Sequence record: OM386662.1
Source of the DNA: Escherichia phage vB_EcoM_ESCO47
Direction: 5' to 3' (one strand)
DNA: 64,000 nucleotides
A program made the position numbers and the translations under genes. The notes under the pieces are model-generated. The model searched no databases and had not been told where the DNA came from. It worked only from the letters and a program-made list of their open reading frames with translations. Below are positions 23,940 through 57,743 of this stretch, one piece after another (the stretch's first letter is position 1; every line of letters starts with the position of its first letter).

Positions 23940-24031
23940 ATCCTGAATAGCCTGAGGCACTATTACACATAAGATGATAAATTATATGGTCTTTGGTAAT
24001 AGTGTCATAGGAATCTACTGAAGAGAATATT

Positions 24032-24232
24032 ATGAGAACATATAACGTGGACTTGGAACTTTTTGATAAAGCGGTGCTCCGGGAATTCCGGCTTATCCAA
24101 AGATTTTTTGATATCGAGTCAGCAGAGTCCTTTAAAGAACGCTTTAAAGAAATTCGATATAAAATACAAACCGATACAGCTACTAAAGAAGAACTTCTTG
24201 AAGTAGCAGAAATTTTTAAACGTAACTTGTGA
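24032..24232 (+). CDS. hypothetical protein (66 aa)
   Basis: Immediately upstream of rIIA; no motif recognised. Confidence 0.45.
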   Translation: MRTYNVDLELFDKAVLREFRLIQRFFDIESAESFKERFKEIRYKIQTDTATKEELLEVAEIFKRNL

Positions 24233-24244
24233 CGAGAGAAAAAT

Positions 24245-26458
24245 ATGATTATTGAAACGGCTAAAGAAACGATTATTGGTTCAGGCGGTAAGAGCACAGC
24301 ATTCACTATTCAAGCAAACAGTAAAGTGTATAAGATTCTTTCTAACGATCTTTACACAAACAAAGAACGAGCTTGTGTACGTGAATTAATCACAAACTGT
24401 ATTGATGGGCAAATTCTTAATGGCTGCACTGATAAGTTTATTGTTCAGGCACCAGGTCGTTTAGACCCACGTTTTGTAGTTCGAGACTTTGGTCCTGGTA
24501 TGAGTGATTTCACCATTCGAGGTAATGACGAAGAGCCAGGAATTTATAACTCATATTTTGCTTCAACTAAAACATCGAGTAACGATTTCATTGGTGGATT
24601 CGGACTCGGTTCTAAAGCTCCATTAGCATATACTGATACGTTTAACATTACTTCTTATCATAATGGTGAAGTTCGTGGTTATGTAATTTATCAAGATGAC
24701 AGTGGTCCACAGATTAAGCCAACCTTCGTAGATAAGATGGGTCCTGATGACCGGACCGGTGTTGAAGTAGTTGTGCCTGTTAACCCAGAAGATTTTGAAA
24801 AGTTCGCATCCGAAATTGCTTATGTTATGCGTCCTCTCGGCGATATTGCAGAAGTTCGTGGTGTTAAAGATATCAAATACTTCCCTGATTTCGACGACGT
24901 TTATCTGGCCAAGGATGCTCCATGGGGTGAACGTGGTAACATCATGGCTGTTTATGGTGGTATTGTATATCCTATCAGTGACGCTATTAAAGAACAAACA
25001 TGGATGATGACGCGATGCACTACAGCTTATATTAAATTCCCCATGGGTGAACTAGATGTAGCCCCGTCTCGTGAAGCATTGTCATTTGATAAACGTACAG
25101 TAGCAAATATCCATAAACGTGTTGCAGAAATTGATGCAAAATTATTTGCTGAAGATTCTAAGAAATGGATTGATTGTGAATATCCACGTCATGTATTCCG
25201 TGAAATCGATTCTCTTGGTTACTCTGCTCGTAAATACATGGAAAAAGCTGGTTCTAATATTGAATCACTGAAATATTCTAAAGAACAGCTAACTTATTCT
25301 GAGTTGTACAAACGTTTTAAAATGGGTCCTGAATGGTGCAACCTTGGTGTTGTATACGATATCGTTTCAGACCCACGTCTTCGTCGTATTCGTGAAAGCG
25401 GAAGCTCGTCTGCAACTATTTCAATTAATAGCCTGCTAGGTATTAGCCGTAAGCATATTGATATTGTTATTGACGATGTGAAAGGCCGCGTACCAATGAT
25501 GCGTGCTCTGAACGATGCTTTGACTTCCACTGATGCATCAACACTCGTTGATAAGGTTCCTTCCGGATGGGGTAGTAGCGTATTATTCATTAACCCGGAA
25601 GATGAAGTTGCAATGAAACTTCTAGAACGATTAAAGGTTATTTTCGCTGGGGATAGCCTTAAATTTTATAAGACATCTGAAATTCTTGCATTAGTTAAAC
25701 CGTGGATTGAAGTTAAAGAACGTTCATCGCAGCCTCGTCCTAAATCCCCAAGTGCTCATCGGTTCTTTAAGAATGAAAACGATGTTTGGGTATCAGAAGA
25801 TCTCTTTATTCCAGCGAGTGAAGCTGATGAAATCCAAGGTTATGCTATAGTTCGTAATCGTTCTAATGCTGAATGTCTTGACGCAGATAAAGGTTGGTTG
25901 AACTATGACTCCAATTTCTTGACCCGTATTGCTGATTTGTCAGGTATTAAAGAGTTCACTGTAGTCCGTCCACAGATTGCTAAGAAAGTTCGTAAACTTG
26001 GTGAAGTAGAATGCTTGTTCGAAAAATCAATTAATGACTATATTACGCTAATTGATAAAGTGGATTATGATGAGTATGTATCACCAAGTCGTAGAGCACA
26101 GCCTTATTTGAATCATATTACTCGTAATGAAGAGCTTAACTTCCTTAGTAAGTATTTTAGCTCTAAGAACAAAGAAATCAGTAAAGATTTTGCAAAACTT
26201 TCAACAGTAAATAATCGTTGGGGATGGAATCGATTCTCAGGTGTTACTAACAGAGAACTGAATAAGAAGTTGGAATTGTGTGCTAAAATTTTCGATAAGC
26301 TTAAAGATAATGCTTACGATAATGATGATAAAATGGTTATTGAATTCGAAACCAATTATCATATTGTGTCAGACTACATGGGACGACGTGGTACTCTTTC
26401 CAAAGAACAGGTCGCTCAAATCGTTAAATTCATGAAGGCCGTGGAAGCGGCCAAATAA
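24245..26458 (+). CDS. rIIA: rIIA membrane-associated protein (GHKL ATPase-like N-domain)
   Basis: 737 aa; Bergerat-fold motifs ELITNCIDG, DFGPGM, GGFGLGSKA; followed by rIIB. Confidence 0.9.
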   Translation: MIIETAKETIIGSGGKSTAFTIQANSKVYKILSNDLYTNKERACVRELITNCIDGQILNGCTDKFIVQAPGRLDPRFVVRDFGPGMSDFTIRGNDEEPGIYNSYFASTKTSSNDFIGGFGLGSKAPLAYTDTFNITSYHNGEVRGYVIYQDDSGPQIKPTFVDKMGPDDRTGVEVVVPVNPEDFEKFASEIAYVMRPLGDIAEVRGVKDIKYFPDFDDVYLAKDAPWGERGNIMAVYGGIVYPISDAIKEQTWMMTRCTTAYIKFPMGELDVAPSREALSFDKRTVANIHKRVAEIDAKLFAEDSKKWIDCEYPRHVFREIDSLGYSARKYMEKAGSNIESLKYSKEQLTYSELYKRFKMGPEWCNLGVVYDIVSDPRLRRIRESGSSSATISINSLLGISRKHIDIVIDDVKGRVPMMRALNDALTSTDASTLVDKVPSGWGSSVLFINPEDEVAMKLLERLKVIFAGDSLKFYKTSEILALVKPWIEVKERSSQPRPKSPSAHRFFKNENDVWVSEDLFIPASEADEIQGYAIVRNRSNAECLDADKGWLNYDSNFLTRIADLSGIKEFTVVRPQIAKKVRKLGEVECLFEKSINDYITLIDKVDYDEYVSPSRRAQPYLNHITRNEELNFLSKYFSSKNKEISKDFAKLSTVNNRWGWNRFSGVTNRELNKKLELCAKIFDKLKDNAYDNDDKMVIEFETNYHIVSDYMGRRGTLSKEQVAQIVKFMKAVEAAK

Positions 26459-26467
26459 GGAAACATT

Positions 26468-27403
26468 ATGTACAATATCAAATGCTTGTCCCAAGAAGAA
26501 CAGTTAGAAGCTTACGGCCTGGTTGAATCAGGCAAATGGACCCGTAAAGAAATTGCCGATTACTTTGACATTTCAACAGATACTCTTCGTAAGATTGTTA
26601 AGAATTTTAAAGCTGAAGAGAAAGCCTCTGAATTTGAAGACGAAGAACAGGTCCCAGAAAATAATGAACCTATTATTACAGGTCATCGTCCAGAAATCGT
26701 ATGGAACGCGTCGTCTAAATTTATTTCAATTATTGAAGGACGCGATTCATATAATGCGACACCAACAAGCCATGCGAATTTTGAAGAAATTAAAGCTAAT
26801 TTGGTCGCAGGAAACTTTGCTAAAGCTATCGAACTTATTAACCTCAAGAAAGCTATTACTAAGTATGTTGATGGTAATATTATTATTGAAGGTGGTCGCC
26901 TATTTTATCAAGGAATAGAAATTCGTTCAGGACTTGTCGATCGTATTATCGACTCTATGGAAAAAGGCGAAGACTTTAAATTTTATCTGCCATTCCTTGA
27001 AAACTTGTTAGAAAACCCAAGTGAAAAAGCAGTTCAACGCTTATTCGACTTCTTGGTTGCAAACGATATTGAAATCACTGAAGACGGTCATTTCTACGCA
27101 TGGAAAGTAGTTCGTAAAGACTATTTAGATTGCTATAGTGGCACATTTGATAACTCGCCTGGTAAAGTTGTTTCAATGCCTCGTACTCGTGTTAACGATG
27201 ATGATACTCAAACTTGTTCCAGTGGTCTACATGTTTGTGCTAAATCATATATTCGTTACTTTGGTTCTAGCTCAGATAAAGTTGTTAAGGTTAAAGTTCA
27301 TCCACGTGATGTTGTATCCATCCCAGTTGACTACGGTGATGCTAAGATGCGTACTTGTCGTTATGAAGTAATTTCAGACGTTACTGAATTATTTGCAGAA
27401 TAA
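26468..27403 (+). CDS. rIIB: rIIB protein
   Basis: 311 aa; MYNIKCL... and C-terminal half closely match T4 rIIB as I recall it. Confidence 0.93.
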   Translation: MYNIKCLSQEEQLEAYGLVESGKWTRKEIADYFDISTDTLRKIVKNFKAEEKASEFEDEEQVPENNEPIITGHRPEIVWNASSKFISIIEGRDSYNATPTSHANFEEIKANLVAGNFAKAIELINLKKAITKYVDGNIIIEGGRLFYQGIEIRSGLVDRIIDSMEKGEDFKFYLPFLENLLENPSEKAVQRLFDFLVANDIEITEDGHFYAWKVVRKDYLDCYSGTFDNSPGKVVSMPRTRVNDDDTQTCSSGLHVCAKSYIRYFGSSSDKVVKVKVHPRDVVSIPVDYGDAKMRTCRYEVISDVTELFAE

Positions 27404-27408
27404 TAATT

Positions 27409-27431
27409 GGGGACTTCGGTCCCCTTTTTTC
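27409..27431 (+). terminator. rho-independent terminator after rIIB
   Basis: GGGGAC-TTCG-GTCCCC then TTTTTT. Confidence 0.75.
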
Positions 27432-27444
27432 TTTAGGGGTAATT

Positions 27445-27732
27445 ATGATTCATCCATTTGACGTATCAGAATCCAAAATTGCTAATCTTCGCGGTCATCA
27501 TAAGTGTAAATCAGTTTATTGTGCTAAATTGGTAAAACATCCTGGCGATGCACACTACGGCTGGTTAGAATGTGACGAAGTTGTTATTGAAATCCCTCCT
27601 GTGGATGCAGAATACCTTGAAGAAGGTGATCGCATTTATTTAGGTGAACTACATATTAGAGGTATCTATGGTAAAGACGAACTTGGGACTACTGAGACTG
27701 AAGAGTCTTCCGACATTTATCCTGTCGAATGA
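27445..27732 (+). CDS. hypothetical protein (95 aa)
   Basis: Follows rIIB terminator; Cys/His-containing N-terminal half. Confidence 0.5.
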   Translation: MIHPFDVSESKIANLRGHHKCKSVYCAKLVKHPGDAHYGWLECDEVVIEIPPVDAEYLEEGDRIYLGELHIRGIYGKDELGTTETEESSDIYPVE

Positions 27733-27748
27733 GTTTCTGACTAGCGAA

Positions 27749-28225
27749 ATGAAGGTAAAGATCGCGGATACAGCCAAGTATTCTCTTAGTCAAGACCCTG
27801 ATCAAATCAAAGAAGACGTAGTTCGTCGTTGTAAGGTTGCAGTCTTTGCCGAGTATGTAGTCGCTAATTGGTTAGATGGATATGTTAATAAAGGCATTGA
27901 AGATGTTGAAGACCCTTACACGTATGCATGGGATGTTCTAGCTCATCCTAAATACTGTGGATTGCGTGTAGAAGTCAAGACTCATCAGATGGACTCACGT
28001 TGGATTTCAGTCACTACAGGATATAGTGGCGATTATCCGGGTGGTAATGGAATCAATATAGGGCCCTTCTTGAATCATCGAGTCGCAGATTGCATTATTA
28101 TATTAAATGCCAAAGAAACCTCACCTGACGTCTTCTCTTATTCTATAAAGTTCGCGGGAGACCATGAAGACCTAAAGAAAATCGTCCGCAAGAGCAACTA
28201 CAACGGGTGGTATCTTCATCTTTAA
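27749..28225 (+). CDS. putative PD-(D/E)xK-type nuclease (DenB position)
   Basis: D...EVK-like motif WDVLAHPKYCGLRVEVKT; start ambiguous (GTG 27644, ATG 27668 with AGAGG, or ATG 27749). Confidence 0.4.
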   Translation: MKVKIADTAKYSLSQDPDQIKEDVVRRCKVAVFAEYVVANWLDGYVNKGIEDVEDPYTYAWDVLAHPKYCGLRVEVKTHQMDSRWISVTTGYSGDYPGGNGINIGPFLNHRVADCIIILNAKETSPDVFSYSIKFAGDHEDLKKIVRKSNYNGWYLHL

Positions 28226-28237
28226 TTTCATAAAAGT

Positions 28238-28273
28238 GTTTACAGCTAAGTAGGACTATGATATAGTAGTCCT
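28238..28273 (+). promoter_or_regulatory. early promoter-like element with inverted repeat
   Basis: -35 GTTTAC 28238-28243, -10 TATAGT 28262-28267; arms AGGACTA 28252-28258 and TAGTCCT 28267-28273; ATG at 28294. Confidence 0.5.
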
Positions 28274-28293
28274 ATCTAAAGGAGGATAACATC

Positions 28294-28557
28294 ATGAAAT
28301 TTAAATTTTTCTACGCAAAACATAAAGTGACCGGTGAGTTTGTTTCAATGTACAACACCGCAGATGACGAAGGGATGATTTATACCCATTTGGGTCTATC
28401 TCATTGGGATTCAGACGTGCCTTATATGTCATCTGAAGCCGAAATAACTCGTCTGGTTAATGGACATATGAACGACCATTTTGGTGTTATTCTTTCTAAA
28501 GACCTTAAAGAGGTTATCAACAAAGGATATATGGAACTCGCGGAAGTTGAGATATGA
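28294..28557 (+). CDS. hypothetical protein (87 aa)
   Basis: Promoter element and GGAGGA RBS upstream. Confidence 0.5.
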   Translation: MKFKFFYAKHKVTGEFVSMYNTADDEGMIYTHLGLSHWDSDVPYMSSEAEITRLVNGHMNDHFGVILSKDLKEVINKGYMELAEVEI

Positions 28558-28640
28558 GCTCTAAAATGTGGATAGGAATATGGTTGCTTAGTATCCCAAT
28601 GATTTGTATAATATTTTCAATTGCATTGAGGTACTTATGA
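28554..28640 (+). CDS. hydrophobic micro-protein (28 aa)
   Basis: ATGA-coupled to upstream ORF; single predicted TM segment. Confidence 0.25.
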   Translation: MSSKMWIGIWLLSIPMICIIFSIALRYL

Positions 28641-28747
28641 AAAATGCACTTCTTATTGTACTAAGAACAATTTGTGATACGGGTTTTTACATTGCATGTT
28701 CGTTCACTGGAACATGGTTGGCTTTAACATATTTTAATGTAATTTAA
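28637..28747 (+). CDS. hydrophobic micro-protein (36 aa)
   Basis: ATGA-coupled to preceding micro-ORF; hydrophobic. Confidence 0.25.
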   Translation: MKNALLIVLRTICDTGFYIACSFTGTWLALTYFNVI

Positions 28748-28749
28748 TT

Positions 28750-28779
28750 GTTTACATCAAGGTAGGATTATGGTATAGT
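28750..28779 (+). promoter_or_regulatory. early promoter-like element
   Basis: -35 GTTTAC 28750-28755, -10 TATAGT 28774-28779, then AGTCCTATCAA; ATG at 28808. Confidence 0.5.
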
Positions 28780-28807
28780 AGTCCTATCAAAATATGAGGA
28801 ACACAAA

Positions 28808-29008
28808 ATGACTAAGCTTTTTAAAGATGTTGAAATTGGTGAAAAATTTGTCCTGAATAATGGTCAGCAGCTTATTCGTGTAGCTTCTATAGCCGGACAA
28901 ACTCATAACTGCATCGCCCCGACGTATTGGACCCGATTCTTTATTGAGGATGACACCGAATGTTTAACTGTTGAAGAGCTTTTTGAACGTTCTGATATAA
29001 CCGAATAA
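28808..29008 (+). CDS. hypothetical protein (66 aa)
   Basis: Promoter element and GAGGAA RBS upstream. Confidence 0.45.
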   Translation: MTKLFKDVEIGEKFVLNNGQQLIRVASIAGQTHNCIAPTYWTRFFIEDDTECLTVEELFERSDITE

Positions 29009-29010
29009 AA

Positions 29011-29046
29011 TTGTACAAACTCCTGAGAGCAGAGTATAATGCTCTC
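29011..29046 (+). promoter_or_regulatory. promoter-like element (TTGTAC type) with inverted repeat
   Basis: TTGTAC 29011-29016, -10 TATAAT 29035-29040; arms GAGAGCA 29025-29031 and TGCTCTC 29040-29046; near-identical copy at 56780; ATG at 29085. Confidence 0.5.
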
Positions 29047-29084
29047 ATGGATTACAAAACATCAACTTACTTGAGGAAATTTAT

Positions 29085-29534
29085 ATGAACAATTACATGA
29101 CTCGTCGCGATATCCTGGCAGCTGGTGGTACTACGGTTGCTTACGTTCAGAATGGTAAATACCAGTCAGGTGAACCATCTAAAGCGGTTGCAGCACAACC
29201 TGGATTCTACTTCTTTGTTAAAGGTTTTAGTAACTCTCGTGTAGTAGCTGCCCGGTTTTATGTAGGTAATCAACGTTCTAAACAGGGACTTGATGGTATT
29301 GTAGCTAATATCCGTAAACAACGTTCTCAAGCTGCTCGCACCATGGCCACCAACAACGTAATTTACGAAGTGTTATACGTCCCAGCATCTAAGATGAAAC
29401 CTCTGACAACCGGCATTGGTAAAAGACAGTTAGTGATGGCTTTCACTCGCAATCACAGTTCAGATCTACAGACACTGGAAGAAATGAACCGAATTCTGGC
29501 CGACAACTTTAAATTCATCTTACAGAGTTACTAA
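29085..29534 (+). CDS. ndd: nucleoid disruption protein Ndd-like
   Basis: 149 aa; [13 protein letters not shown]...[12 protein letters not shown]...TLEEMNR.LADNFKF matches T4 Ndd as I recall it; position between rIIB and 52. Confidence 0.6.
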
Positions 29535-29576
29535 TCCGGTAATAAAACGGCGTCTTAGGACGCCACTGGGGAAATT

Positions 29577-29741
29577 ATGCAACCGATTTTAACTTTTATC
29601 TGGTTAGTGACTGTTATTGTGTTGGTAACCCTTTTTGCAGCAGGTGTATGGGTTCCAGGTCCTTTTGTTGTTGGATTTATTTGTGTGTGGTTCATACTAG
29701 ACGCAATCGTTAAATTTTTAGTAACGGTATTTAACCGATGA
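29577..29741 (+). CDS. small membrane protein (54 aa)
   Basis: Hydrophobic; between ndd and 52 where T4 carries small peptides (stp/ac region). Confidence 0.4.
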   Translation: MQPILTFIWLVTVIVLVTLFAAGVWVPGPFVVGFICVWFILDAIVKFLVTVFNR

Positions 29742-29878
29742 TTAAACAAATCTTTGGCTACTCGATAGCCCTTGCTGCTTTATTAGTGGCATTATATTAT
29801 GGTGTTATGTTCGGGCTAATCCAAGTCGTGCTTTTCATTTCTGATGTTATTATGGCACTACATTCACTAGTATGGTAA
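29738..29878 (+). CDS. small membrane protein (46 aa)
   Basis: ATGA-coupled to upstream ORF; hydrophobic. Confidence 0.35.
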   Translation: MIKQIFGYSIALAALLVALYYGVMFGLIQVVLFISDVIMALHSLVW

Positions 29879-29882
29879 ATTT

Positions 29883-31208
29883 ATGCAACTGAATAATCGT
29901 GATTTAAAAAGTATTATTGATAATGAAGCACTAGCGTATGCAATGTATACGGTTGAAAACCGTGCAATCCCAAACATGATTGATGGGTTTAAACCGGTTC
30001 AACGATTTGTTATTCATCGTGCATTGGACTTGGCTCGTGGAAACAAAGAAAAATTCCATAAACTGGCTTCAATCGCTGGTGGTGTAGCTGATCTCGGTTA
30101 TCACCACGGTGAATCTTCAGCACAAGATGCCGGTGCTCTGATGGCTAACACATGGAATAACAACTATCCATTATTAGATGGACAAGGCAACTTTGGTTCA
30201 CGAACGGTTCAAAAGGCTGCAGCATCTCGTTATATTTTTGCTCGTATCAGTAAAAATTTCTATAACGTCTATAAAGATTCTGAGTATGCTCCAGAACATG
30301 AAGATAAAGAACACGTTCCACCAAAATTCTATCTTCCAATTATCCCGACGGTTCTATTGAACGGTGTTTCTGGTATCGCAACCGGGTATGCAACAAGCAT
30401 TCTGCCTCATAGTTTTAAATCTGTTAAGAAGGCTGTATTACAAGCTCTTCAAGGTAAAAATATCACTAAGCCTAAAGTTGAATTCCCAGAGTTTCGCGGC
30501 GAAGTGCATGAAGTTGAAGACCGATATGAAATTCACGGCACATATAAATTCACATCTCGGACTCAAATGCAAATCACCGAGATTCCATATAAATTTGATC
30601 GTGAAACGTATGTGAGTAAAGTTCTCGACCCGTTAGAAGATAAAGGGTTGATTACATGGGAAGATGACTGCGGTGAACATGGTTTCGGATTTAAGGTGAA
30701 GTTCCGTAAAGAGTATTCGCTTCCGGACGATGAAGCTCTTCGTCATGAGAAAATCATGAAAGACTTTAGTCTTATTGAACGTCGTTCCCAGAACATTACT
30801 GTTATCAATGAAAAAGGCAAGTTGGCTGTATATGATAACGTTGTTGATTTGATTAAAGATTTTGTTGAAGTCCGTAAGACTTACGTTCAAAAACGTATTG
30901 ACAACAAAATCGTTGAATCAGAAAAAGCTTTTAAACTAGCTTTTGCCAAGGCGCATTTTATCAAGAAAGTTATTGCCGGTGAAATCGTGATTCAAGGCAA
31001 GACTCGTAAAGCTTTGACCGAAGAGTTATCACAAGTGGAAATGTATAAAGAACATGTAGACAAGTTAGTAGGTCTTAACATCTTCCATATCACATCAGAT
31101 GAAGCACGTAAACTAGCAGAAGAAGCTAAAGCTAAGAAAGAAGAAAATGAGTACTGGAAATCTACAGATGTCGTAGCAGAGTACACTAAAGACCTGGAGT
31201 CTCTATGA
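29883..31208 (+). CDS. 52: DNA topoisomerase II medium subunit gp52 (GyrA-like)
   Basis: 441 aa; MIDGFKPVQRFV motif. Confidence 0.93.
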   Translation: MQLNNRDLKSIIDNEALAYAMYTVENRAIPNMIDGFKPVQRFVIHRALDLARGNKEKFHKLASIAGGVADLGYHHGESSAQDAGALMANTWNNNYPLLDGQGNFGSRTVQKAAASRYIFARISKNFYNVYKDSEYAPEHEDKEHVPPKFYLPIIPTVLLNGVSGIATGYATSILPHSFKSVKKAVLQALQGKNITKPKVEFPEFRGEVHEVEDRYEIHGTYKFTSRTQMQITEIPYKFDRETYVSKVLDPLEDKGLITWEDDCGEHGFGFKVKFRKEYSLPDDEALRHEKIMKDFSLIERRSQNITVINEKGKLAVYDNVVDLIKDFVEVRKTYVQKRIDNKIVESEKAFKLAFAKAHFIKKVIAGEIVIQGKTRKALTEELSQVEMYKEHVDKLVGLNIFHITSDEARKLAEEAKAKKEENEYWKSTDVVAEYTKDLESL

Positions 31209-31288
31209 GCTTCACAGGCCTAGCCCTCGGGTTCTTGGTCACAGTCACATTGTTAGTCATCTTACTTCTATGGTTAGACCGTGAATGA
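31205..31288 (+). CDS. hydrophobic micro-protein (27 aa)
   Basis: ATGA-coupled to gene 52 stop; ends at the terminator hairpin. Confidence 0.25.
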   Translation: MSFTGLALGFLVTVTLLVILLLWLDRE

Positions 31289-31310
31289 GGAGCCTTCGGG
31301 CTCCTTTTTG
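31288..31310 (+). terminator. rho-independent terminator after gene 52 region
   Basis: GGAGCC-TTCG-GGCTCC then TTTTT. Confidence 0.7.
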
Positions 31311-31329
31311 TGCATTTTTACACAAAACA

Positions 31330-31358
31330 GTTTACATGCGCGTCAAGCATGATATTAT
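31330..31358 (+). promoter_or_regulatory. early promoter-like element upstream of motA
   Basis: -35 GTTTAC 31330-31335, -10 TATTAT 31353-31358; CATGC...GCATG repeat in spacer; ATG at 31397. Confidence 0.5.
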
Positions 31359-31396
31359 AGACCTATCAAAACAAAACAACCATTTGGAGAAATAAA

Positions 31397-32029
31397 ATGT
31401 CTAAAGTTACTTACATCATCAAAGCTTCTGAAAACGTCCTGAATGAAAAAACCGCTGCGATAATGGTTTATATCATTAAGAACAACTTCTGCACCGCTGC
31501 TGATGTCCGTGAAGCCCTGGAAGCAGAATACAATGCATCAATTGTTAACTCTAACATTGGTGTACTGATTAAGAAAGGTTTAATCGAAAAATCAGGTGAT
31601 GGACTTGTAGCAACTGGTGAAGCAATGGATATAGTCCAGAAAGCAGCTGATCTGTTTGCTCAAGAAAATGCACCGGAACTTCTGCGGAAACGTAACACTC
31701 GTAAAGCTCGCGGAGTTACTCCTGAGATGCAAGTTCTTGCAGATTTTGTTTTCGAAAATATTAAAGACAAAGTTGAAGTTAAAGAAATTGGTGAAAACCG
31801 TAGTAACTTAGAAGTTCGATTCGCAAAACGAGTTTTAGGTATTCGTCAAATTGAAATTCGTCGAGATGGATGTCTTCGTATCTTTGCATACAACATGACA
31901 GAAACCGAGTCAAAACTGTTTACTTCTCTTGAAAACGGTGTTAAGATAAAAGTCGGTGGTAAATATACCTACATTGATTTCCCTAATGTAACAAAAGAAA
32001 TCATTACTCTTGTAACTAACGTACTGTGA
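31397..32029 (+). CDS. motA: middle-transcription activator MotA
   Basis: 210 aa; MSKVTYIIKAS...NSNIGVLIKKGL.EKSGDGL matches T4 MotA as I recall it. Confidence 0.9.
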   Translation: MSKVTYIIKASENVLNEKTAAIMVYIIKNNFCTAADVREALEAEYNASIVNSNIGVLIKKGLIEKSGDGLVATGEAMDIVQKAADLFAQENAPELLRKRNTRKARGVTPEMQVLADFVFENIKDKVEVKEIGENRSNLEVRFAKRVLGIRQIEIRRDGCLRIFAYNMTETESKLFTSLENGVKIKVGGKYTYIDFPNVTKEIITLVTNVL

Positions 32030-32039
32030 GGAATACACG

Positions 32040-32369
32040 ATGAATAAGTTGAATATTGTTAATGAACTTCGTAAATGTGCAGAACCTACTCAGGAAGGAT
32101 GGGATATTTGGTACCACGGTGCTTATCTTGGAACTATTGTAAAGATTAAAGCTGGTAAATATATGATTCTTCGTGAAGATAAGGATGCTCCAGTAGGTAT
32201 TCGCAATAACTTCATGGCTGCAATTGGTTCATTCGTTGATGCTGCATACGAAGTGTATAAAGAAGATTACAAAGAACTTATGGAATCACAACCAGTTATT
32301 CGTTCGATTGGCGTTAACAAAGTTCAACAGAAAAGCCTATGGCAACGTGTTAAAGGATGGTTCAAATGA
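32040..32369 (+). CDS. hypothetical protein (109 aa)
   Basis: Directly downstream of motA. Confidence 0.5.
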
Positions 32370-32827
32370 AAACCTTTGAAGAACGTTTAGCTTTGTTAGA
32401 TAAAGCCCTATCACGTGAGACCCCTGAAAGTCTGGCTGCTAAATTACAGTCATATGGATACGAATATACGAAACAAGATGTTTTAGATGAAGTTCCTGAA
32501 ATTTGTTGGGAAATTGGTCATTGGTGTAATGACCAGAAATTCCAACGACGAATTGTCTGTGCAGCCAACCGATTTAAATTAAAGGATGGTGGAACACTTG
32601 TTATTCCAGGTGCTCGTCATTATTCTAAAGATATGGCTGCGGTATTAGATGCAGTTGAAGATAAGGTTGTTTCATGTCAGGTTTGTGGCGACGACCAAGG
32701 CTTTATCGACCAGTATAGCAATTATTGGACTCGTAAAGAAGCAATGATTATTGCTACTTATGCCGGTCAGGTACGTATTGAACGCGGTGGTCGTGAAGAC
32801 GAACTTTATTCAGAGGACCTTTACTAG
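32366..32827 (+). CDS. hypothetical protein (153 aa)
   Basis: ATGA coupling at 32366; listed ORF starts at 32357; Cys pairs CWEIGHWC and CQVC. Confidence 0.5.
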
Positions 32828-33105
32828 TGAATCTTAAACAAATGCAGATTGATGATATTGAAACCCATATTAATCATATCAACCGCGGGAATGCCATGGT
32901 GGAAGATAATTGGGGAACTTATGTTAACCAACCTGCATGGGACGCTTTAGATCACGAATATATAAACAATATTTCTCCTATTGACATTCACAAAAATATG
33001 AACGGTTTAAAACCATTTTTACGTGATATGTATATTGCTACAAACAAAGAAATTATTAGTTCGTTGGAATATCAATTAAGGAAACTAAAAGATGAGGACT
33101 CTTGA
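32827..33105 (+). CDS. hypothetical protein (92 aa), Arn position
   Basis: Between motA and asiA where T4 has arn; by position only. Confidence 0.45.
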   Translation: MNLKQMQIDDIETHINHINRGNAMVEDNWGTYVNQPAWDALDHEYINNISPIDIHKNMNGLKPFLRDMYIATNKEIISSLEYQLRKLKDEDS

Positions 33106-33301
33106 TTCAAAGTCGGAATATTTTAATTCTTTAAATGACAAAACCAAAGCTTTAATACGTCATTTTATAGTTGAAATGGGCTATACCAACTCAAGCGACC
33201 TTAGAGAACATATAATTGAATGTGGTGTAGCCAAGAAATTCTCATTCACTGGAAAATGTTTAAACGTGGTAATTGCCCATTATGAACAATCTTGTAGCTA
33301 A
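33092..33301 (+). CDS. hypothetical protein (69 aa)
   Basis: Overlaps upstream ORF end. Confidence 0.45.
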   Translation: MRTLDSKSEYFNSLNDKTKALIRHFIVEMGYTNSSDLREHIIECGVAKKFSFTGKCLNVVIAHYEQSCS

Positions 33302-33390
33302 GCACAACTTCAATAAGGCTTCCGTCCACAAAGACAAGAAGAAAAACTTTAAAGAGTCTAACCGTAAGCAGAAACATAAAGGGAAAGGCT

Positions 33391-33678
33391 ATGATTACTA
33401 AGATCAAAGAACTACCGGCAACTGAACTTGTTCTGCACTGCGAATTGTTAGCCGAGTTATATTCCGTCAATAAAAATGTCTACCGTAGTGTCATTGTTGA
33501 TATGGAAGATGAAGTGTGTTCTCGCGTCAGGTTTCCTGTCGAGTTTAGTTACCATCCACCAGGTAACATTACGGTTGTTTTTGGTTCTGATTTTACCGAA
33601 GAAGAGGTCTTAGCAAAGCTCAAAGAAGAAATTGAAGCCTTTGAATTGCAAGATTATATTGACGACTATAGAGGGTAA
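33391..33678 (+). CDS. hypothetical protein (95 aa)
   Basis: No motif recognised. Confidence 0.5.
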   Translation: MITKIKELPATELVLHCELLAELYSVNKNVYRSVIVDMEDEVCSRVRFPVEFSYHPPGNITVVFGSDFTEEEVLAKLKEEIEAFELQDYIDDYRG

Positions 33679-33681
33679 AGT

Positions 33682-33840
33682 ATGAGCCATAACTTAGAGA
33701 ACGTAGTAGATGCCGAACGTGAAAGGGAAGCCTTAGTCTATAATGAACTATTATCTCATCTTACTACCTTACACTCGTATGAGCAGGAAGACTATACAAA
33801 ATATGTAGAAAGTGTAGAAAAATATGTTTACAATCCGTAA
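33682..33840 (+). CDS. hypothetical small protein (52 aa)
   Basis: GAGGG RBS 5 nt upstream of ATG; below the ORF-track cutoff. Confidence 0.35.
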   Translation: MSHNLENVVDAEREREALVYNELLSHLTTLHSYEQEDYTKYVESVEKYVYNP

Positions 33841-33854
33841 GGATATGTTAATAT
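33826..33854 (+). promoter_or_regulatory. early promoter-like element upstream of asiA
   Basis: -35 GTTTAC 33826-33831, 17-bp spacer, -10 TAATAT 33849-33854, CCTATCAA downstream; ATG at 33889. Confidence 0.45.
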
Positions 33855-33888
33855 ACACCTATCAACTAAATGGAATGAATAAAACATT

Positions 33889-34164
33889 ATGACTACCAAA
33901 AATATTGAAATCGTCCGTGAAATTATTACTGTTGCTTCTATTCTGATGAAATTTTCAAGGGAAGACATTGTTGAGGATCGTCAAACATTTATCGAATTCT
34001 TGAATGAGATAGGAATTAGAAATGATGGCCGACAGTTAAATCAAAACTCATTTAAAAAGCTAGTTTCGAATTTAACTGTCGAAGAAAAGAAAACACTGAT
34101 CAGTGAATTCAATGAGGGTTACGAAAATATTTATCGTCATTTAGTGATGCATTCTAACAATTGA
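33889..34164 (+). CDS. asiA: anti-sigma70 factor AsiA
   Basis: 91 aa; IEIVREIITVASILMKFSREDIV...LNEIG matches T4 AsiA as I recall it. Confidence 0.9.
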   Translation: MTTKNIEIVREIITVASILMKFSREDIVEDRQTFIEFLNEIGIRNDGRQLNQNSFKKLVSNLTVEEKKTLISEFNEGYENIYRHLVMHSNN

Positions 34165-34169
34165 TTCAA

Positions 34170-34829
34170 TTATTTAGCCCTTCCTAAAATCCTGGCCGCT
34201 TGGTTACAAATAGAAGCTAAGCGGTCTTCTCCTATTATTTTAGTCCCCTTATACCAATACATTGAAACAGCCCCAGCATATACGTTGTCCAAATTAAAAT
34301 AAGGGCAACTATACATGTAGTTTAGTTCCTCAGTTTTAGACTTTGTTGGCAGAAATGCGAACTCTGTTTTAGAATCAAAGTGCCTTCCACTTAAATGAAT
34401 TAAATATTCATTCATAGTCTTATCCACCGGAAATCCACCTAAAGACTTCTCGGAAATGGTAGTAGGTAGTTTACCCTCATATGCAATAAGGTCCACAAAA
34501 TAATTTAAATTTTTAGGGCGGAAAGAATACACTGCACTAAAATCTGCACCGGAAGAGATATGAACTATCTGTAATTGTTCTAAAGCCGCAGATTCAAAAC
34601 GTTGGTCTCTTTCCTTTTGTATAACTTCTGTGTATGTGTCATATTTGGCTCTCACATAATAGTCGAGGAATATAGTTCCTTTATACCATATCAAAGCCAT
34701 AATGAATAAAAGAACAACAACGGCCACACGAGAAACAAGAACTTTCCCGGTGGCATTATCTTTGAAAATACGATCTAACAACCCAAATAGAATATCACTA
34801 GGAGAGAATGATACTCTAGGCGCTGCCAT
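34170..34829 (-). CDS. t: holin T
   Basis: 219 aa; MAAPRVSFSPSDILFG...single TM...C-terminal periplasmic domain matching T4 T as I recall it. Confidence 0.93.
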   Translation of the reverse strand: MAAPRVSFSPSDILFGLLDRIFKDNATGKVLVSRVAVVVLLFIMALIWYKGTIFLDYYVRAKYDTYTEVIQKERDQRFESAALEQLQIVHISSGADFSAVYSFRPKNLNYFVDLIAYEGKLPTTISEKSLGGFPVDKTMNEYLIHLSGRHFDSKTEFAFLPTKSKTEELNYMYSCPYFNLDNVYAGAVSMYWYKGTKIIGEDRLASICNQAARILGRAK

Positions 34830-34839
34830 AATACCTCCT

Positions 34840-35391
34840 TTATCTGAAGATATTTATCACTCTTTTAAAAAATGATTTTCGTTCTTTTTCTGGCCATGCC
34901 GGGAATTCGCCACCTAAATGCTCATGCTTTTCATAAAGAGCAAAGAAACGTTTAAGATTCTGGTAATAGAATTTCTCGTCTTTATTTGCAACAGAAGCTT
35001 CAACCAAATTAGACAAGACTTGGTACTCTTTAAAAAGTTGATCAAGTTTTCTATTTCTAAGAGTCAAACGTTTATAACACTCATCCTCTTTCCAGCCGCC
35101 ATCTATCCAAAGATCAAACTCGCCAGGCTCATCAAATGTTGCACCCTGTAAGCTTCCTATACTATCAATTTTAACGGGTTGTTTATCGAAGGTCCAAGCT
35201 AGTTTACCGCGATGATCTTCTTCGTAAATCCAATCTTGAATGCGTTCGTCAAAAACAATCGCATATCCTTCTTTATGATCAAGTGGTTTTTTAGTTGTAG
35301 AATGCGCCGGGAGCCCAATGCCTTTAACAGGTTTATATGTTTCTTCTTTATAAAATTCTTTAGTGTCAAAATAGTAGTGGTAAATTTTCAT
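34840..35391 (-). CDS. 38: tail fibre assembly protein gp38 (T4-type)
   Basis: 183 aa; MKIYHYYFDTKEFYKEE...HLGGEFP matches T4 gp38 as I recall it. Confidence 0.9.
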   Translation of the reverse strand: MKIYHYYFDTKEFYKEETYKPVKGIGLPAHSTTKKPLDHKEGYAIVFDERIQDWIYEEDHRGKLAWTFDKQPVKIDSIGSLQGATFDEPGEFDLWIDGGWKEDECYKRLTLRNRKLDQLFKEYQVLSNLVEASVANKDEKFYYQNLKRFFALYEKHEHLGGEFPAWPEKERKSFFKRVINIFR

Positions 35392-35399
35392 TATTATAA

Positions 35400-35415
35400 A
35401 GGGCCCGAAGGCCCT
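35400..35415 (-). terminator. hairpin between genes 37 and 38 (minus strand)
   Basis: Minus-strand AGGGCC-TTCG-GGCCCT with weak U tract; likely attenuator or stability element. Confidence 0.35.
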
Positions 35416-35419
35416 CTCC

Positions 35420-54238: not shown

Positions 54239-55372
<1,134 letters not shown>

Positions 55373-56826: not shown

Positions 56827-57743
<917 letters not shown>

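What the first reader, a model, noticed from the sequence alone, without database searches (positions are those of the whole stretch)
29577..29878. Pair of small membrane proteins between ndd and gene 52
54-aa and 46-aa hydrophobic proteins, ATGA-coupled, occupy the position where T4 carries the small stp and ac genes. The Stp peptide of T4 is known to activate a host anticodon nuclease, so small peptides here are candidates for host-defence interaction.
Basis: partly seen in the sequence, partly recalled or inferred. Interest (0 to 1): 0.35.

Follow-up and report, generated by a model that had tools for sequence, protein, structure and literature searches.

The report
Two small T4-type phage membrane genes
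The two tiny hydrophobic genes are real but ordinary: one is the copy of phage T4's uncharacterised membrane gene 52.1, and the other belongs to a rare, already catalogued family that here replaces T4's ac gene, next to a deleted remnant of stp.

Summary
ORF1 (29577-29741, 54 aa) and ORF2 (29738-29878, 46 aa) overlap by ATGA and lie between ndd and topoisomerase gene 52 of a T4-like phage.

T4's order is ndd-stp-ac-52.1-52.
- ORF2 is the ortholog of T4 gp52.1 (43/46 identical; Pfam DUF7396, 79.8 bits). It is neither Stp nor Ac.
- ORF1 belongs to PHROG 9347, a rare family of predicted two-helix membrane proteins in Dhakavirus and Gaprivervirus phages (best match VR5, 74% aa). It shows no detectable relation to Ac or Stp (hhalign probability below 1%).

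Both ORFs are under purifying selection (dN/dS 0.19-0.31 and 0.06-0.11).

The 42-nt spacer before ORF1 is a fossil of stp. About 45 nt of coding sequence are deleted; the terminal hairpin and ribosome-binding site remain.

The ndd-ORF1 module is a divergent patch in a Mosigvirus-like backbone. This fits the known cassette shuffling in this hyperplastic region.

Function remains inferred: early, co-translated, non-essential inner-membrane microproteins that probably alter host envelope physiology, as proposed for Ac. Nothing supports a Stp-like activation of PrrC. ORF1 is a new member of a known kind; interest is low.

The parts
29012..29040 (+). Sigma-70-type (T4 early-type) promoter-like site, TGTACA-17-TATAAT, upstream of ndd. 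It is the likely start of the ndd-ORF1-ORF2-52 transcript. A stem GAGAGCA...TGCTCTC overlaps the -10 hexamer.
   Evidence: 10 of 12 matches; the count of such sites is not above the shuffled expectation, so this is a consensus match only; sequence. No terminator-like site lies between it and ORF1; the only one before gene 52 (29773-29791, inside ORF2) is within the number expected from shuffles.
29085..29534 (+). ndd (nucleoid disruption protein), 149 aa. It is a divergent allele: 71% nt to Mosigvirus, 75-77% to Dhakavirus VR5 and JS98-like phages.
   Evidence: Pfam PF06591 6.1e-67; phrog_1102; blastn.
29535..29576 (+). Non-coding remnant of stp. It aligns to the last ~33 nt of stp in T4, VR26, an IME08-like locus and two metagenome contigs, with ~45 nt of stp coding sequence deleted. 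It retains the hairpin GGCGTC-TTAG-GACGCC (29549-29564) and the Shine-Dalgarno-like GGGGAA that serves ORF1.
   Evidence: Alignment. The pattern is unique in the window and appeared in 0 of 100 shuffles. It is present in 15 of the 22 loci fetched by then and absent from the loci that lack stp (VR5, Mosigvirus). RNA fold -15.6 kcal/mol, z=-2.3. An in-frame TAA lies two codons upstream and there is no start codon (sequence).
29577..29741 (+). ORF1, 54 aa, member of PHROG 9347. It is a predicted two-helix (hairpin) membrane protein with the turn motif GVWVPGP.
   Evidence: phrog_9347 3.6e-22, full length. 74% identical to the VR5 hypothetical protein. dN/dS 0.19-0.31. AlphaFold2 gives helices 2-21 and 28-53 at pLDDT 78.6.
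29738..29878 (+). ORF2, 46 aa, ortholog of T4 gp52.1 (Pfam DUF7396, phrog_3595). It is predicted as one long hydrophobic helix. It is ATGA-coupled to ORF1 and ends 4 nt before the ATG of gene 52.
   Evidence: DUF7396 1.6e-22, 79.8 bits against a cut-off of 27. 43/46 identical to T4 gp52.1. dN/dS 0.06-0.11 for the window copy. AlphaFold2 gives a helix 2-45 at pLDDT 95.9.
29883..31208 (+). Gene 52, DNA topoisomerase II medium subunit, 441 aa. It is the conserved right-hand anchor of the slot.
   Evidence: 80% nt to T4 gene 52, 86.6% to Mosigvirus.

Best explanation
The pair consists of two ordinary accessory early genes of a T4-like (Straboviridae, Tevenvirinae) phage.

Identity (shown):
- ORF2 is the ortholog of T4 gene 52.1, a 46-aa membrane protein of unknown function. 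It is found directly upstream of topoisomerase gene 52 in every Tequatro-, Mosig-, Dhaka- and Gaprivervirus locus examined.
- ORF1 is a member of PHROG 9347, a 53-55-aa family so far annotated only as 'hypothetical protein' in Dhakavirus and Gaprivervirus phages.

History (shown): the interval between ndd and 52.1 is a cassette slot. Different lineages carry different combinations of stp, ac (phrog_2501), the ORF1 family (phrog_9347) and a fourth 57-59-aa family (phrog_5941). In this phage, an ndd / (stp) / ORF1 / 5'-52.1 module of Dhaka- or Gaprivervirus type sits in a Mosigvirus-like backbone, where Mosigviruses carry an ac-like gene. The stp in that module was then mostly deleted.

Mechanism (inferred):
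- The genes are probably transcribed early with ndd.
- ORF2 has no good Shine-Dalgarno sequence of its own, so it is probably translated by termination-reinitiation from ORF1. This would give roughly equimolar products.
- ORF1 would insert into the host inner membrane as a helical hairpin, with both ends probably cytoplasmic. gp52.1 would insert as a long transmembrane helix.
- Together, or with a host membrane complex, they would alter envelope physiology (transport, efflux, permeability or lipid synthesis) in a way that is dispensable on laboratory hosts.

The nearest functional precedent is Ac. It occupies the same coupled position before 52.1 in T4 and is proposed to block AcrAB-TolC efflux.
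For: Identity:
- Searches give the family assignments and identities.
- The PHROG 9347 family is rare and phage-restricted. I found 1 hit in the 5.8-billion-sequence database and 2 clusters in the exhaustive search of 1.84 billion representatives. There were 24 of 50,697 phage records and 3 metagenome contigs. There were none in 185,579 bacterial and archaeal genomes.
- Both are real genes under purifying selection.

Slot contents by lineage:
- T4: stp-ac-52.1
- Mosigvirus: ac-52.1
- VR26/VR20/VR25 and an IME08-like locus: stp-ORF1fam-52.1
- VR5: phrog_5941-ORF1fam-52.1
- JS98-like: phrog_5941-stp-ac-ORF1fam-52.1
- This window: (stp relic)-ORF1-52.1

Coupling: in every locus examined, the gene before 52.1 overlaps its start codon, by 1, 4 or 8 nt.

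Mosaic origin: Mosigvirus LF82-41 is 98% identical at 29000-29059 and 86.6% after 29795. It is only 71% identical over ndd and cannot be aligned over ORF1 and the first 57 nt of ORF2.

stp relic.

Structure.

Dispensability and phenotypes of the T4 region:
- The T4 deletions saDelta9 (52.1 to denB) and GT7 (gp52.1-rIIB) are viable (PMC6071114, PMC9712115).
- saDelta9 abolishes the infection-induced stimulation of phospholipid synthesis (PMC6071114).
- Ac sensitises cells to acriflavine and is proposed to obstruct AcrAB-TolC (bioRxiv 10.1101/2025.06.30.662393; PMC13250531).
- Cassette exchange in the ndd region of T4-type phages is documented (PMC4122927, PMC2839356).
Against: - No experiment or homology links either family to any biochemical function. 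Pfam, NCBIfam and PADLOC gave nothing informative, and neither did the PDB sequence search or Foldseek.
- The ORF1-gp52.1 complex is inferred only from conserved translational coupling. T4-type gp52.1 is found with either Ac or the ORF1 family, so there is no partner-specific covariation.
- JS98-like phages carry both an ac-like gene and an ORF1-family gene. The two are therefore not simple functional substitutes.
- Conservation in gp52.1 is not confined to one helix face (permutation P=0.7). A defined interaction surface could not be shown.
- The AlphaFold2 models rest on shallow alignments (2 and 13 sequences).
- The promoter is a consensus match only.
Confidence: 0.6

Rival explanations
1. 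One reading: the two peptides are the counterparts of Stp and Ac and interact with a host defence such as the EcoprrI/PrrC anticodon nuclease.
For: They lie in the interval where T4 has stp and ac. The slot varies between close relatives, as expected for loci in an arms race. The phage still encodes the tRNA-repair pair Pnk and RnlA, so PrrC-type pressure on the lineage is plausible.
Against: - ORF2 is gp52.1, which coexists with stp and ac in T4.
- ORF1 belongs to a different family from both.
- Stp is a soluble, basic 26-mer, whereas these are transmembrane helices.
- No stp-like or ac-like sequence exists anywhere in the 64-kb window.
- stp itself is present only as a deleted relic.
- There are no PADLOC matches.
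Confidence: 0.03
2. ORF1 is a non-homologous functional analogue of Ac. It would be a hairpin microprotein that, with gp52.1, inhibits a host efflux pump or otherwise raises envelope permeability, so the phage would be acridine-sensitive through ORF1.
For: - ORF1 has the same position and the same overlap with the 52.1 start as Ac in T4 and Mosigvirus.
- It has a similar size and a predicted two-helix shape (Ac is described as two helices in bioRxiv 10.1101/2025.06.30.662393).
- In this backbone it sits where relatives have the ac-like gene.
Against: - JS98-like genomes keep both families.
- There is no sequence relation.
- Helix 2 of Ac is much less hydrophobic than that of ORF1.
- The efflux-pump model for Ac is itself only a hypothesis.
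Confidence: 0.2
3. The proteins act in phage-phage or phage-defence conflicts at the membrane. Examples would be superinfection exclusion, as with T4 Imm and Sp, or blocking or triggering a membrane-based abortive-infection system.
For: They appear to be early, are small membrane proteins, and are dispensable on laboratory hosts (PMC6071114, PMC9712115). The ORF1 family has a patchy, cassette-like distribution. ORF1 has a higher dN/dS than gp52.1.
Against: gp52.1 is very strongly conserved across four genera (dN/dS below 0.15 between genera; the one higher value, 0.23, is the close VR5/JS98-like pair), which does not fit an arms-race protein. There is no similarity to Imm, Sp or any known anti-defence protein.
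Confidence: 0.15
4. 52.1 is retained mainly as an upstream coupled reading frame or regulatory region for gene 52, or as a membrane tether for the topoisomerase. ORF1 would be a passenger.
For: - 52.1 always ends 4 nt before the 52 start codon.
- The 52.1/52 junction at 29840-29899 is 100% identical to T4 against ~80% elsewhere.
- A MotA-box-like middle promoter lies inside ORF2: TGCTTTA, 12 nt, TATTAT at 29776-29800.
Against: Synonymous sites in 52.1 do diverge (dS 0.5 to above 2) while the protein stays nearly invariant. This indicates selection on the protein itself. T4 deletions removing 52.1 are viable (PMC6071114, PMC9712115).
Confidence: 0.1
5. The ORFs are chance open frames in AT-rich DNA.
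For: They are very short. An antisense 64-codon frame also stays open across ORF1.
Against: Both have full-length HMM matches, a conserved frame and length across about 70% nt identity, and dN/dS well below 1.
Confidence: 0.01

Closest known systems
T4 gp52.1 (NP_049876.1; Pfam DUF7396, PHROG 3595)
   Same: ORF2 is 43/46 identical. It has the same length, the same position 4 nt before gene 52, and the same overlap with the preceding small membrane gene.
   Different: Three conservative substitutions (K4Q, L6F, L10I). The partner gene upstream is ORF1 instead of ac.
Escherichia phage VR5 hypothetical protein YP_009205956.1 (VR5_262) and relatives in VR7 (ORF281c), VR26, VR20, VR25 and JS98/IME08-type phages (PHROG 9347)
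   Same: ORF1 is 74% identical to the VR5 protein. It has the same 54-aa length, the GVWxPGP turn, the D42/K46 pair, and the ATGA overlap with 52.1.
   Different: No closer relative is on record. Here the gene sits in a Mosigvirus-like backbone, where the family was not found otherwise. Except in VR5, the relatives have an intact stp immediately upstream; this phage has only a relic.
T4 Ac (acridine sensitivity protein, 51 aa, PHROG 2501)
   Same: A small predicted two-helix membrane protein in the same slot, translationally overlapped with 52.1. It is replaced by ORF1 relative to Mosigvirus relatives.
   Different: No detectable homology. The second helix of Ac is only weakly hydrophobic. Both families coexist in JS98-like phages. 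The acridine phenotype of this phage is untested.
T4 Stp (26-aa activator of PrrC / inhibitor of EcoprrI, PHROG 6763)
   Same: Only the genomic neighbourhood. A 3' remnant of stp lies directly upstream of ORF1.
   Different: Stp is soluble and basic, whereas ORF1 and ORF2 are transmembrane. No sequence similarity was found.
Bacterial small membrane proteins that bind transporters, e.g. AcrZ binding AcrB (recalled from general knowledge, not tested)
   Same: Size class (about 50 aa) and hydrophobic helix. This is the kind of action proposed for Ac.
   Different: No sequence or fold match was obtained in any library. This is purely an analogy.

Membership tests
gp52.1 / DUF7396 (PF24129), for ORF2 | Scores above the Pfam gathering threshold over the full 46-position model | tested here: met
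   79.8 bits against a cut-off of 27, model positions 1-46 of 46; phrog_3595 1.8e-24.
gp52.1 / DUF7396 (PF24129), for ORF2 | Orthologous position: immediately upstream of topoisomerase gene 52, overlapped by the preceding small gene | tested here: met
   The invariant core LYYGVMFGLIQVVLFISDVIM is present.
PHROG 9347, for ORF1 | Full-length HMM match | tested here: met
   E 3.6e-22, residues 2-53 on profile positions 1-52 of 53. JS98-type and VR25-type relatives hit the same PHROG.
PHROG 9347, for ORF1 | Conserved synteny (directly before and overlapping 52.1) and the G-V-W/F-x-P turn between two hydrophobic helices | tested here: met
T4 Ac family (PHROG 2501), for ORF1 | Sequence or profile similarity to Ac | tested here: not met
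   No phrog_2501 hit. BLASTP E=1.3. hhalign probability 0.4%.
T4 Ac family (PHROG 2501), for ORF1 | Confers acridine sensitivity on infection; loss gives acriflavine resistance | not testable with these tools
   Requires plating of wild-type and deletion phage on acriflavine.
T4 Stp family (PHROG 6763), for ORF1 and ORF2 | About 26-aa basic soluble peptide with the conserved MSNFHNEHVMQ... sequence | tested here: not met
   No phrog_6763 hit. No significant tblastn hit for Stp in the whole window (best E=0.1). Opposite hydropathy.
T4 Stp family (PHROG 6763), for ORF1 and ORF2 | Activates PrrC or inhibits EcoprrI | not testable with these tools
   Needs expression in a prr+ host and a tRNA-Lys cleavage assay.
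PeSL-type modular shuffling of T4-type hyperplastic regions (PMC2839356, PMC4122927) | Cassette boundaries coincide with an early promoter plus stem-loop motif | tested here: inconclusive
   The left edge of the divergent module (about 29060) lies just after a promoter-like site with an overlapping stem (29012-29060). The right edge lies inside 52.1, not at a PeSL. A scar with a crossover at the same place in 52.1 exists in JS98-like genomes.

The most novel reading that the evidence does not exclude
The ndd-52.1 interval may be a dedicated exchange site for non-homologous two-helix membrane microproteins: Ac, the ORF1 family and the phrog_5941 family. Each would be co-translated with, and would dock onto, the invariant gp52.1 helix. 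gp52.1 would act as a common scaffold and the swapped partner would set which host inner-membrane complex is hit (efflux pump, lipid-synthesis enzyme or membrane defence sensor). ORF1 would then be a new specificity module, and its import together with stp loss would be a host-adaptation event.
Probability: 0.1. Interest if true: 0.5.

Novelty: new member of a known kind. Interest (0 to 1): 0.15.

Why it matters
It matters little on its own. Both genes fall into catalogued families of unknown function, in a region of T4-type genomes long known to be plastic and dispensable.

The modest value has three parts:
- It corrects the annotation logic for this locus: ORF2 is 52.1, not ac or stp.
- It documents a clean natural stp deletion in a phage that keeps Pnk and RnlA.
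- It shows that the gene co-translated with gp52.1 can be swapped between unrelated families. This gives a simple genetic handle, through partner-swap phages, for finally assigning functions to gp52.1 and Ac. That includes the unexplained loss of phospholipid-synthesis stimulation in the T4 saDelta9 deletion.

Tried and rejected
- Homology of ORF1 to Ac or gp52.1: BLASTP and hhalign were negative.
- Stp, Ac or phrog_5941 genes elsewhere in the window: none found.
- Function from curated libraries: Pfam gave only a DUF for ORF2 and nothing for ORF1. NCBIfam and PADLOC gave nothing.
- Solved-structure relatives: a PDB profile search at E up to 10 gave no hits. Foldseek of the ORF1 model against PDB gave no hits. 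I did not fold-search the single-helix ORF2 model, because matches to a lone helix are meaningless.
- Known RNA family for the hairpin or spacer: Rfam at E up to 1 gave none.
- Wider family members: the word-indexed search gave 1 hit and the exhaustive HMMER search gave 2 clusters. The viral-contig scan found only VR5. The metagenome scan found 3 contigs and the bacterial-genome scan none. The exact proteins are not on record.
- One-sided conservation of the gp52.1 helix, as evidence for an interaction face: not supported (P=0.71 and 0.72). G22, Q29, D36 and S43 do fall on one face.
- My home-made sliding-identity plot gave spuriously high values for the JS98-like locus over ORF1. I discarded that column in favour of blastn.
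- Literature: no paper mentions DUF7396. The term 'gp52.1' appears only as a deletion end-point. One search was wasted on clinical 'NDD' papers.

Full report
**Observation**

ORF1 is at 29577-29741 (54 aa) and ORF2 at 29738-29878 (46 aa). The ORF2 ATG overlaps the ORF1 TGA.

The gene upstream (29085-29534) is ndd (Pfam Phage_T4_Ndd, 6.1e-67). The gene downstream (29883-31208) is the topoisomerase II medium subunit, gene 52. Both small proteins are extremely hydrophobic, with GRAVY 1.84 and 1.73.

They are not chance frames:
- Each matches a full-length family HMM. ORF1 hits phrog_9347 at 3.6e-22. ORF2 hits phrog_3595 at 1.8e-24 and Pfam DUF7396 at 79.8 bits against a cut-off of 27.
- Comparison with orthologs at 64-89% nucleotide identity shows purifying selection. 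ORF1 has dN/dS 0.19-0.31. ORF2 has dN/dS 0.06-0.11 in the five comparisons of the window copy (0.05-0.23 over all pairs).

**What the genome is**

Over 24000-36000 the window is about 85-87% identical to Mosigvirus phages (LF82-41, APCEc01, p000v and others). No record in the 50,697-phage collection is closer, and the exact ORF1 and ORF2 proteins are not on record in the large protein collection.

**Comparison with T4**

The T4 record gives the order ndd - stp (26 aa) - ac (51 aa) - 52.1 (46 aa) - 52.
- ORF2 is 43/46 identical to T4 gp52.1. It is its ortholog.
- ORF1 is not Ac. T4 Ac and the ac-like genes of Mosigvirus and JS98-type phages all fall in phrog_2501, Stp in phrog_6763, and ORF1 in phrog_9347.
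- BLASTP of ORF1 against Ac gives E=1.3.
- Profile-profile comparison of an 8-member ORF1-family alignment with a 6-member Ac alignment gives 0.4% probability. Both families are equally unrelated to gp52.1.
- Nothing resembling Stp, Ac or the phrog_5941 family is encoded anywhere in the 64 kb.

**Distribution of the ORF1 family**

The family is rare and restricted to T4-like phages:
- one hit (VR5, 74% identity) in the word-indexed 5.8-billion-sequence search;
- two clusters in the exhaustive search of 1.84 billion representatives;
- 24 phage records, all Gaprivervirus (SP18, VR7, VR20, VR25, VR26, RZ and others) or Dhakavirus (VR5, dhaeg and others), with a best nucleotide identity of 83%;
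- three metagenome contigs;
- none in 185,579 bacterial and archaeal genomes.

Everywhere it is annotated as 'hypothetical protein', for example VR7ORF281c. In SP18 it is unannotated and frameshifted.

**The slot is a cassette site**

I extracted the ndd-52 interval from 20-odd loci. The contents by lineage are:

| Lineage | Genes between ndd and 52 |
|---|---|
| Tequatrovirus (T4) | stp-ac-52.1 |
| Mosigvirus | ac-52.1 |
| VR26/VR20/VR25, an IME08-like locus and two metagenome contigs | stp-ORF1fam-52.1 |
| VR5 | phrog_5941-ORF1fam-52.1 |
| JS98-like | phrog_5941-stp-ac-ORF1fam-52.1 |
| This window | ORF1-52.1 |

gp52.1 is the constant element. Whatever gene precedes it overlaps its start codon by 1, 4 or 8 nt.

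JS98-like genomes contain a scar between the ac-like gene and the ORF1-family gene. It is a frameshifted 5' half of 52.1 fused to the 3' part of a second stp. This shows that an stp-ORF1fam-52.1 cassette was inserted by a crossover inside 52.1, at the YYGV codons.

The window shows the same kind of event:
- Mosigvirus LF82-41 is 98% identical up to about 29060 and 86.6% identical from 29795 on.
- It is only 71% identical across ndd.
- It cannot be aligned across ORF1 and the first 57 nt of ORF2.
- That stretch is closest, at 75-83%, to Dhakavirus and JS98-type phages.

Modular exchange in exactly this ndd neighbourhood of T4-type genomes has been described before (PMC4122927, which shows T4 ndd.4/.5 against PST ORF268/269; PMC2839356).

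**The stp fossil**

The 42-nt spacer between ndd and ORF1 (29535-29576) aligns with the end of stp in T4, VR26, the IME08-like locus and the metagenome contigs. Relative to those sequences:
- About 45 nt are missing, covering stp codons 1 to about 16.
- An in-frame TAA lies two codons before the retained GGC GTC TTA GGA CGC.
- No start codon remains.
- What survives is the hairpin GGCGTC-TTAG-GACGCC plus the ribosome-binding region now used by ORF1.

The 26-nt motif is unique in the window and appeared in 0 of 100 shuffles. It is present in 15 of the 22 loci fetched by then. It is absent from the loci that lack stp (VR5 and the Mosigvirus loci).

In the stp-bearing phages the loop is mostly UUCG (UUUG in VR26). 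That makes it one of the C(UUCG)G hairpins long known in T4 intercistronic regions (my recollection of Tuerk et al. 1988, not checked here).

This phage therefore descends from an stp-ORF1-52.1 arrangement and has lost stp. It still encodes full-length Pnk (56842-57741, 77% identical to T4 PseT) and RnlA (54248-55369, 67% identical).

**Anatomy and expression**

- A promoter-like site, TGTACA-17-TATAAT, lies at 29012-29040 upstream of ndd. The scan reports no terminator-like site between it and ORF1. The only one before gene 52 (29773-29791, inside ORF2) is within the number expected from shuffles. The hairpin in the spacer has no U-tract and was not called.
- ORF1 has a GGGGAA Shine-Dalgarno-like element 5 nt before its ATG. 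ORF2 has none, which fits reinitiation at the ATGA overlap. This reading of the sequence is an inference.
- AlphaFold2 predicts ORF1 as two helices (2-21 and 28-53) joined by the conserved GVWVPGP turn, at pLDDT 78.6 from only 2 sequences. Both of its basic residues (K46 and the C-terminal R54) lie in its C-terminal part, so an N-in/C-in hairpin is the likely topology (positive-inside rule; inference).
- gp52.1 is predicted as one continuous helix, 2-45, at pLDDT 95.9. Residues G22, Q29, D36 and S43 fall on one face, but conservation is not face-specific (P=0.7). The whole Y20-I38 core is invariant, apart from conservative changes at five positions.

**Function**

Nothing in Pfam, NCBIfam, PADLOC, the PDB sequence search, the Foldseek fold search or Rfam gives a functional lead. 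The literature offers only context:
- T4 deletions saDelta9 (52.1 through denB) and GT7 (gp52.1-rIIB) are viable (PMC6071114, PMC9712115).
- saDelta9 abolishes the T4-induced stimulation of phospholipid, especially phosphatidylglycerol, synthesis. No gene has been assigned to this effect (PMC6071114).
- Ac makes infected or expressing cells accumulate acridines. It has recently been proposed to obstruct AcrAB-TolC (bioRxiv 10.1101/2025.06.30.662393; cited in PMC13250531).

My best-supported account is that ORF1 and gp52.1 are early, co-translated, non-essential inner-membrane microproteins. They would act together, or on a host membrane complex, to alter envelope physiology.
- I hold the identity and history part at about 0.9.
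- I hold the membrane-complex mechanism at about 0.3.
- The specific Ac-like efflux or permeability reading is about 0.2.
- A role in membrane-level phage-phage or defence conflicts is about 0.15.
- A mainly regulatory or tethering role of 52.1 for gene 52 is about 0.1. The 52.1/52 junction at 29840-29899 is 100% identical to T4, and a MotA-type TGCTTTA-12-TATTAT site lies at 29776-29800.

**Verdict**

The position is right, the homology is wrong, 52.1 was overlooked, and stp is a relic rather than replaced. ORF2 is already known as T4 gp52.1. ORF1 is a new, divergent member of a catalogued but uncharacterised phage family, sitting in a new backbone. Interest is low (0.15).

The most novel reading still open is that gp52.1 is a common scaffold with swappable partner microproteins that set the host target. 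I give it about 0.1 probability, and it would be of moderate interest if true.

Noticed in passing
window 29535-29576: The spacer before ORF1 is a deletion remnant of stp. About 45 nt of coding sequence are lost, while the terminal hairpin GGCGTC-TTAG-GACGCC and the ribosome-binding site are kept. The stem is invariant in all stp-bearing loci across four genera, including its synonymous positions, which hints at selection on the RNA hairpin itself.
   Followed up: yes
window ~29060-29795: ndd + stp relic + ORF1 + the first 57 nt of 52.1 form a divergent patch in a Mosigvirus-like backbone. The patch is 71% identical or unalignable to Mosigvirus and 75-83% identical to Dhakavirus or JS98-type phages. 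The flanks are 98% and 86.6% identical to LF82-41. The left edge abuts a promoter-plus-stem motif at 29012-29060 that resembles a PeSL.
   Followed up: partly
window 29776-29800: A MotA-box-like middle-promoter motif lies inside ORF2: TGCTTTA, 12 nt, TATTAT. It would drive gene 52. The box is conserved in T4, VR5 and the JS98-like locus (one mismatch in VR26), but the -10 element is weaker in T4.
   Followed up: no
window 29840-29899: The last 39 nt of 52.1, the 4-nt spacer and the first 17 nt of gene 52 are 100% identical to T4. The surrounding identity is about 80%. This suggests a constrained translation-initiation region for gene 52.
   Followed up: no
window 31205-31288 and 31285-31395: Two more ATGA-coupled mini-ORFs follow gene 52, roughly where T4 has motA.1. 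One is a hydrophobic 27-aa ORF (MSFTGLALGFLVTVTLLVILLLWLDRE) and the other is 36 aa. Neither matches a PHROG at E up to 0.01 (the 27-aa one gave only chance-level Pfam and PHROG hits, E about 0.5-0.8).
   Followed up: partly
window 54248-55369 and 56842-57741: Full-length RnlA (67% aa identity to T4) and polynucleotide kinase PseT (77%) are present. The phage therefore keeps the tRNA-repair countermeasure to PrrC-type nucleases although stp is deleted.
   Followed up: partly
L013 and L015 (JS98-like) 1198-1345: A fossil junction lies between the ac-like gene and the ORF1-family gene. It is a frameshifted 5' half of 52.1 fused to the 3' part of a T4-type stp. It is a scar of cassette insertion with a crossover at the YYGV codons of 52.1.
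   Followed up: partly
L003 (Shigella phage SP18) 2271-2563: SP18 has an unannotated stp and an ORF1-family gene split by a frameshift. This is either a pseudogene or a sequencing error. The RefSeq record shows no feature between ndd and gene 52.
   Followed up: no
window 28554-28640 and 28808-29008: Other small genes of the ndd cluster are present: a 28-aa ORF matching phrog_8851 ('outer membrane protein', 1.9e-10), and a 66-aa ORF matching phrog_2183 (4.1e-30) that lies where T4 has ndd.1.
   Followed up: no
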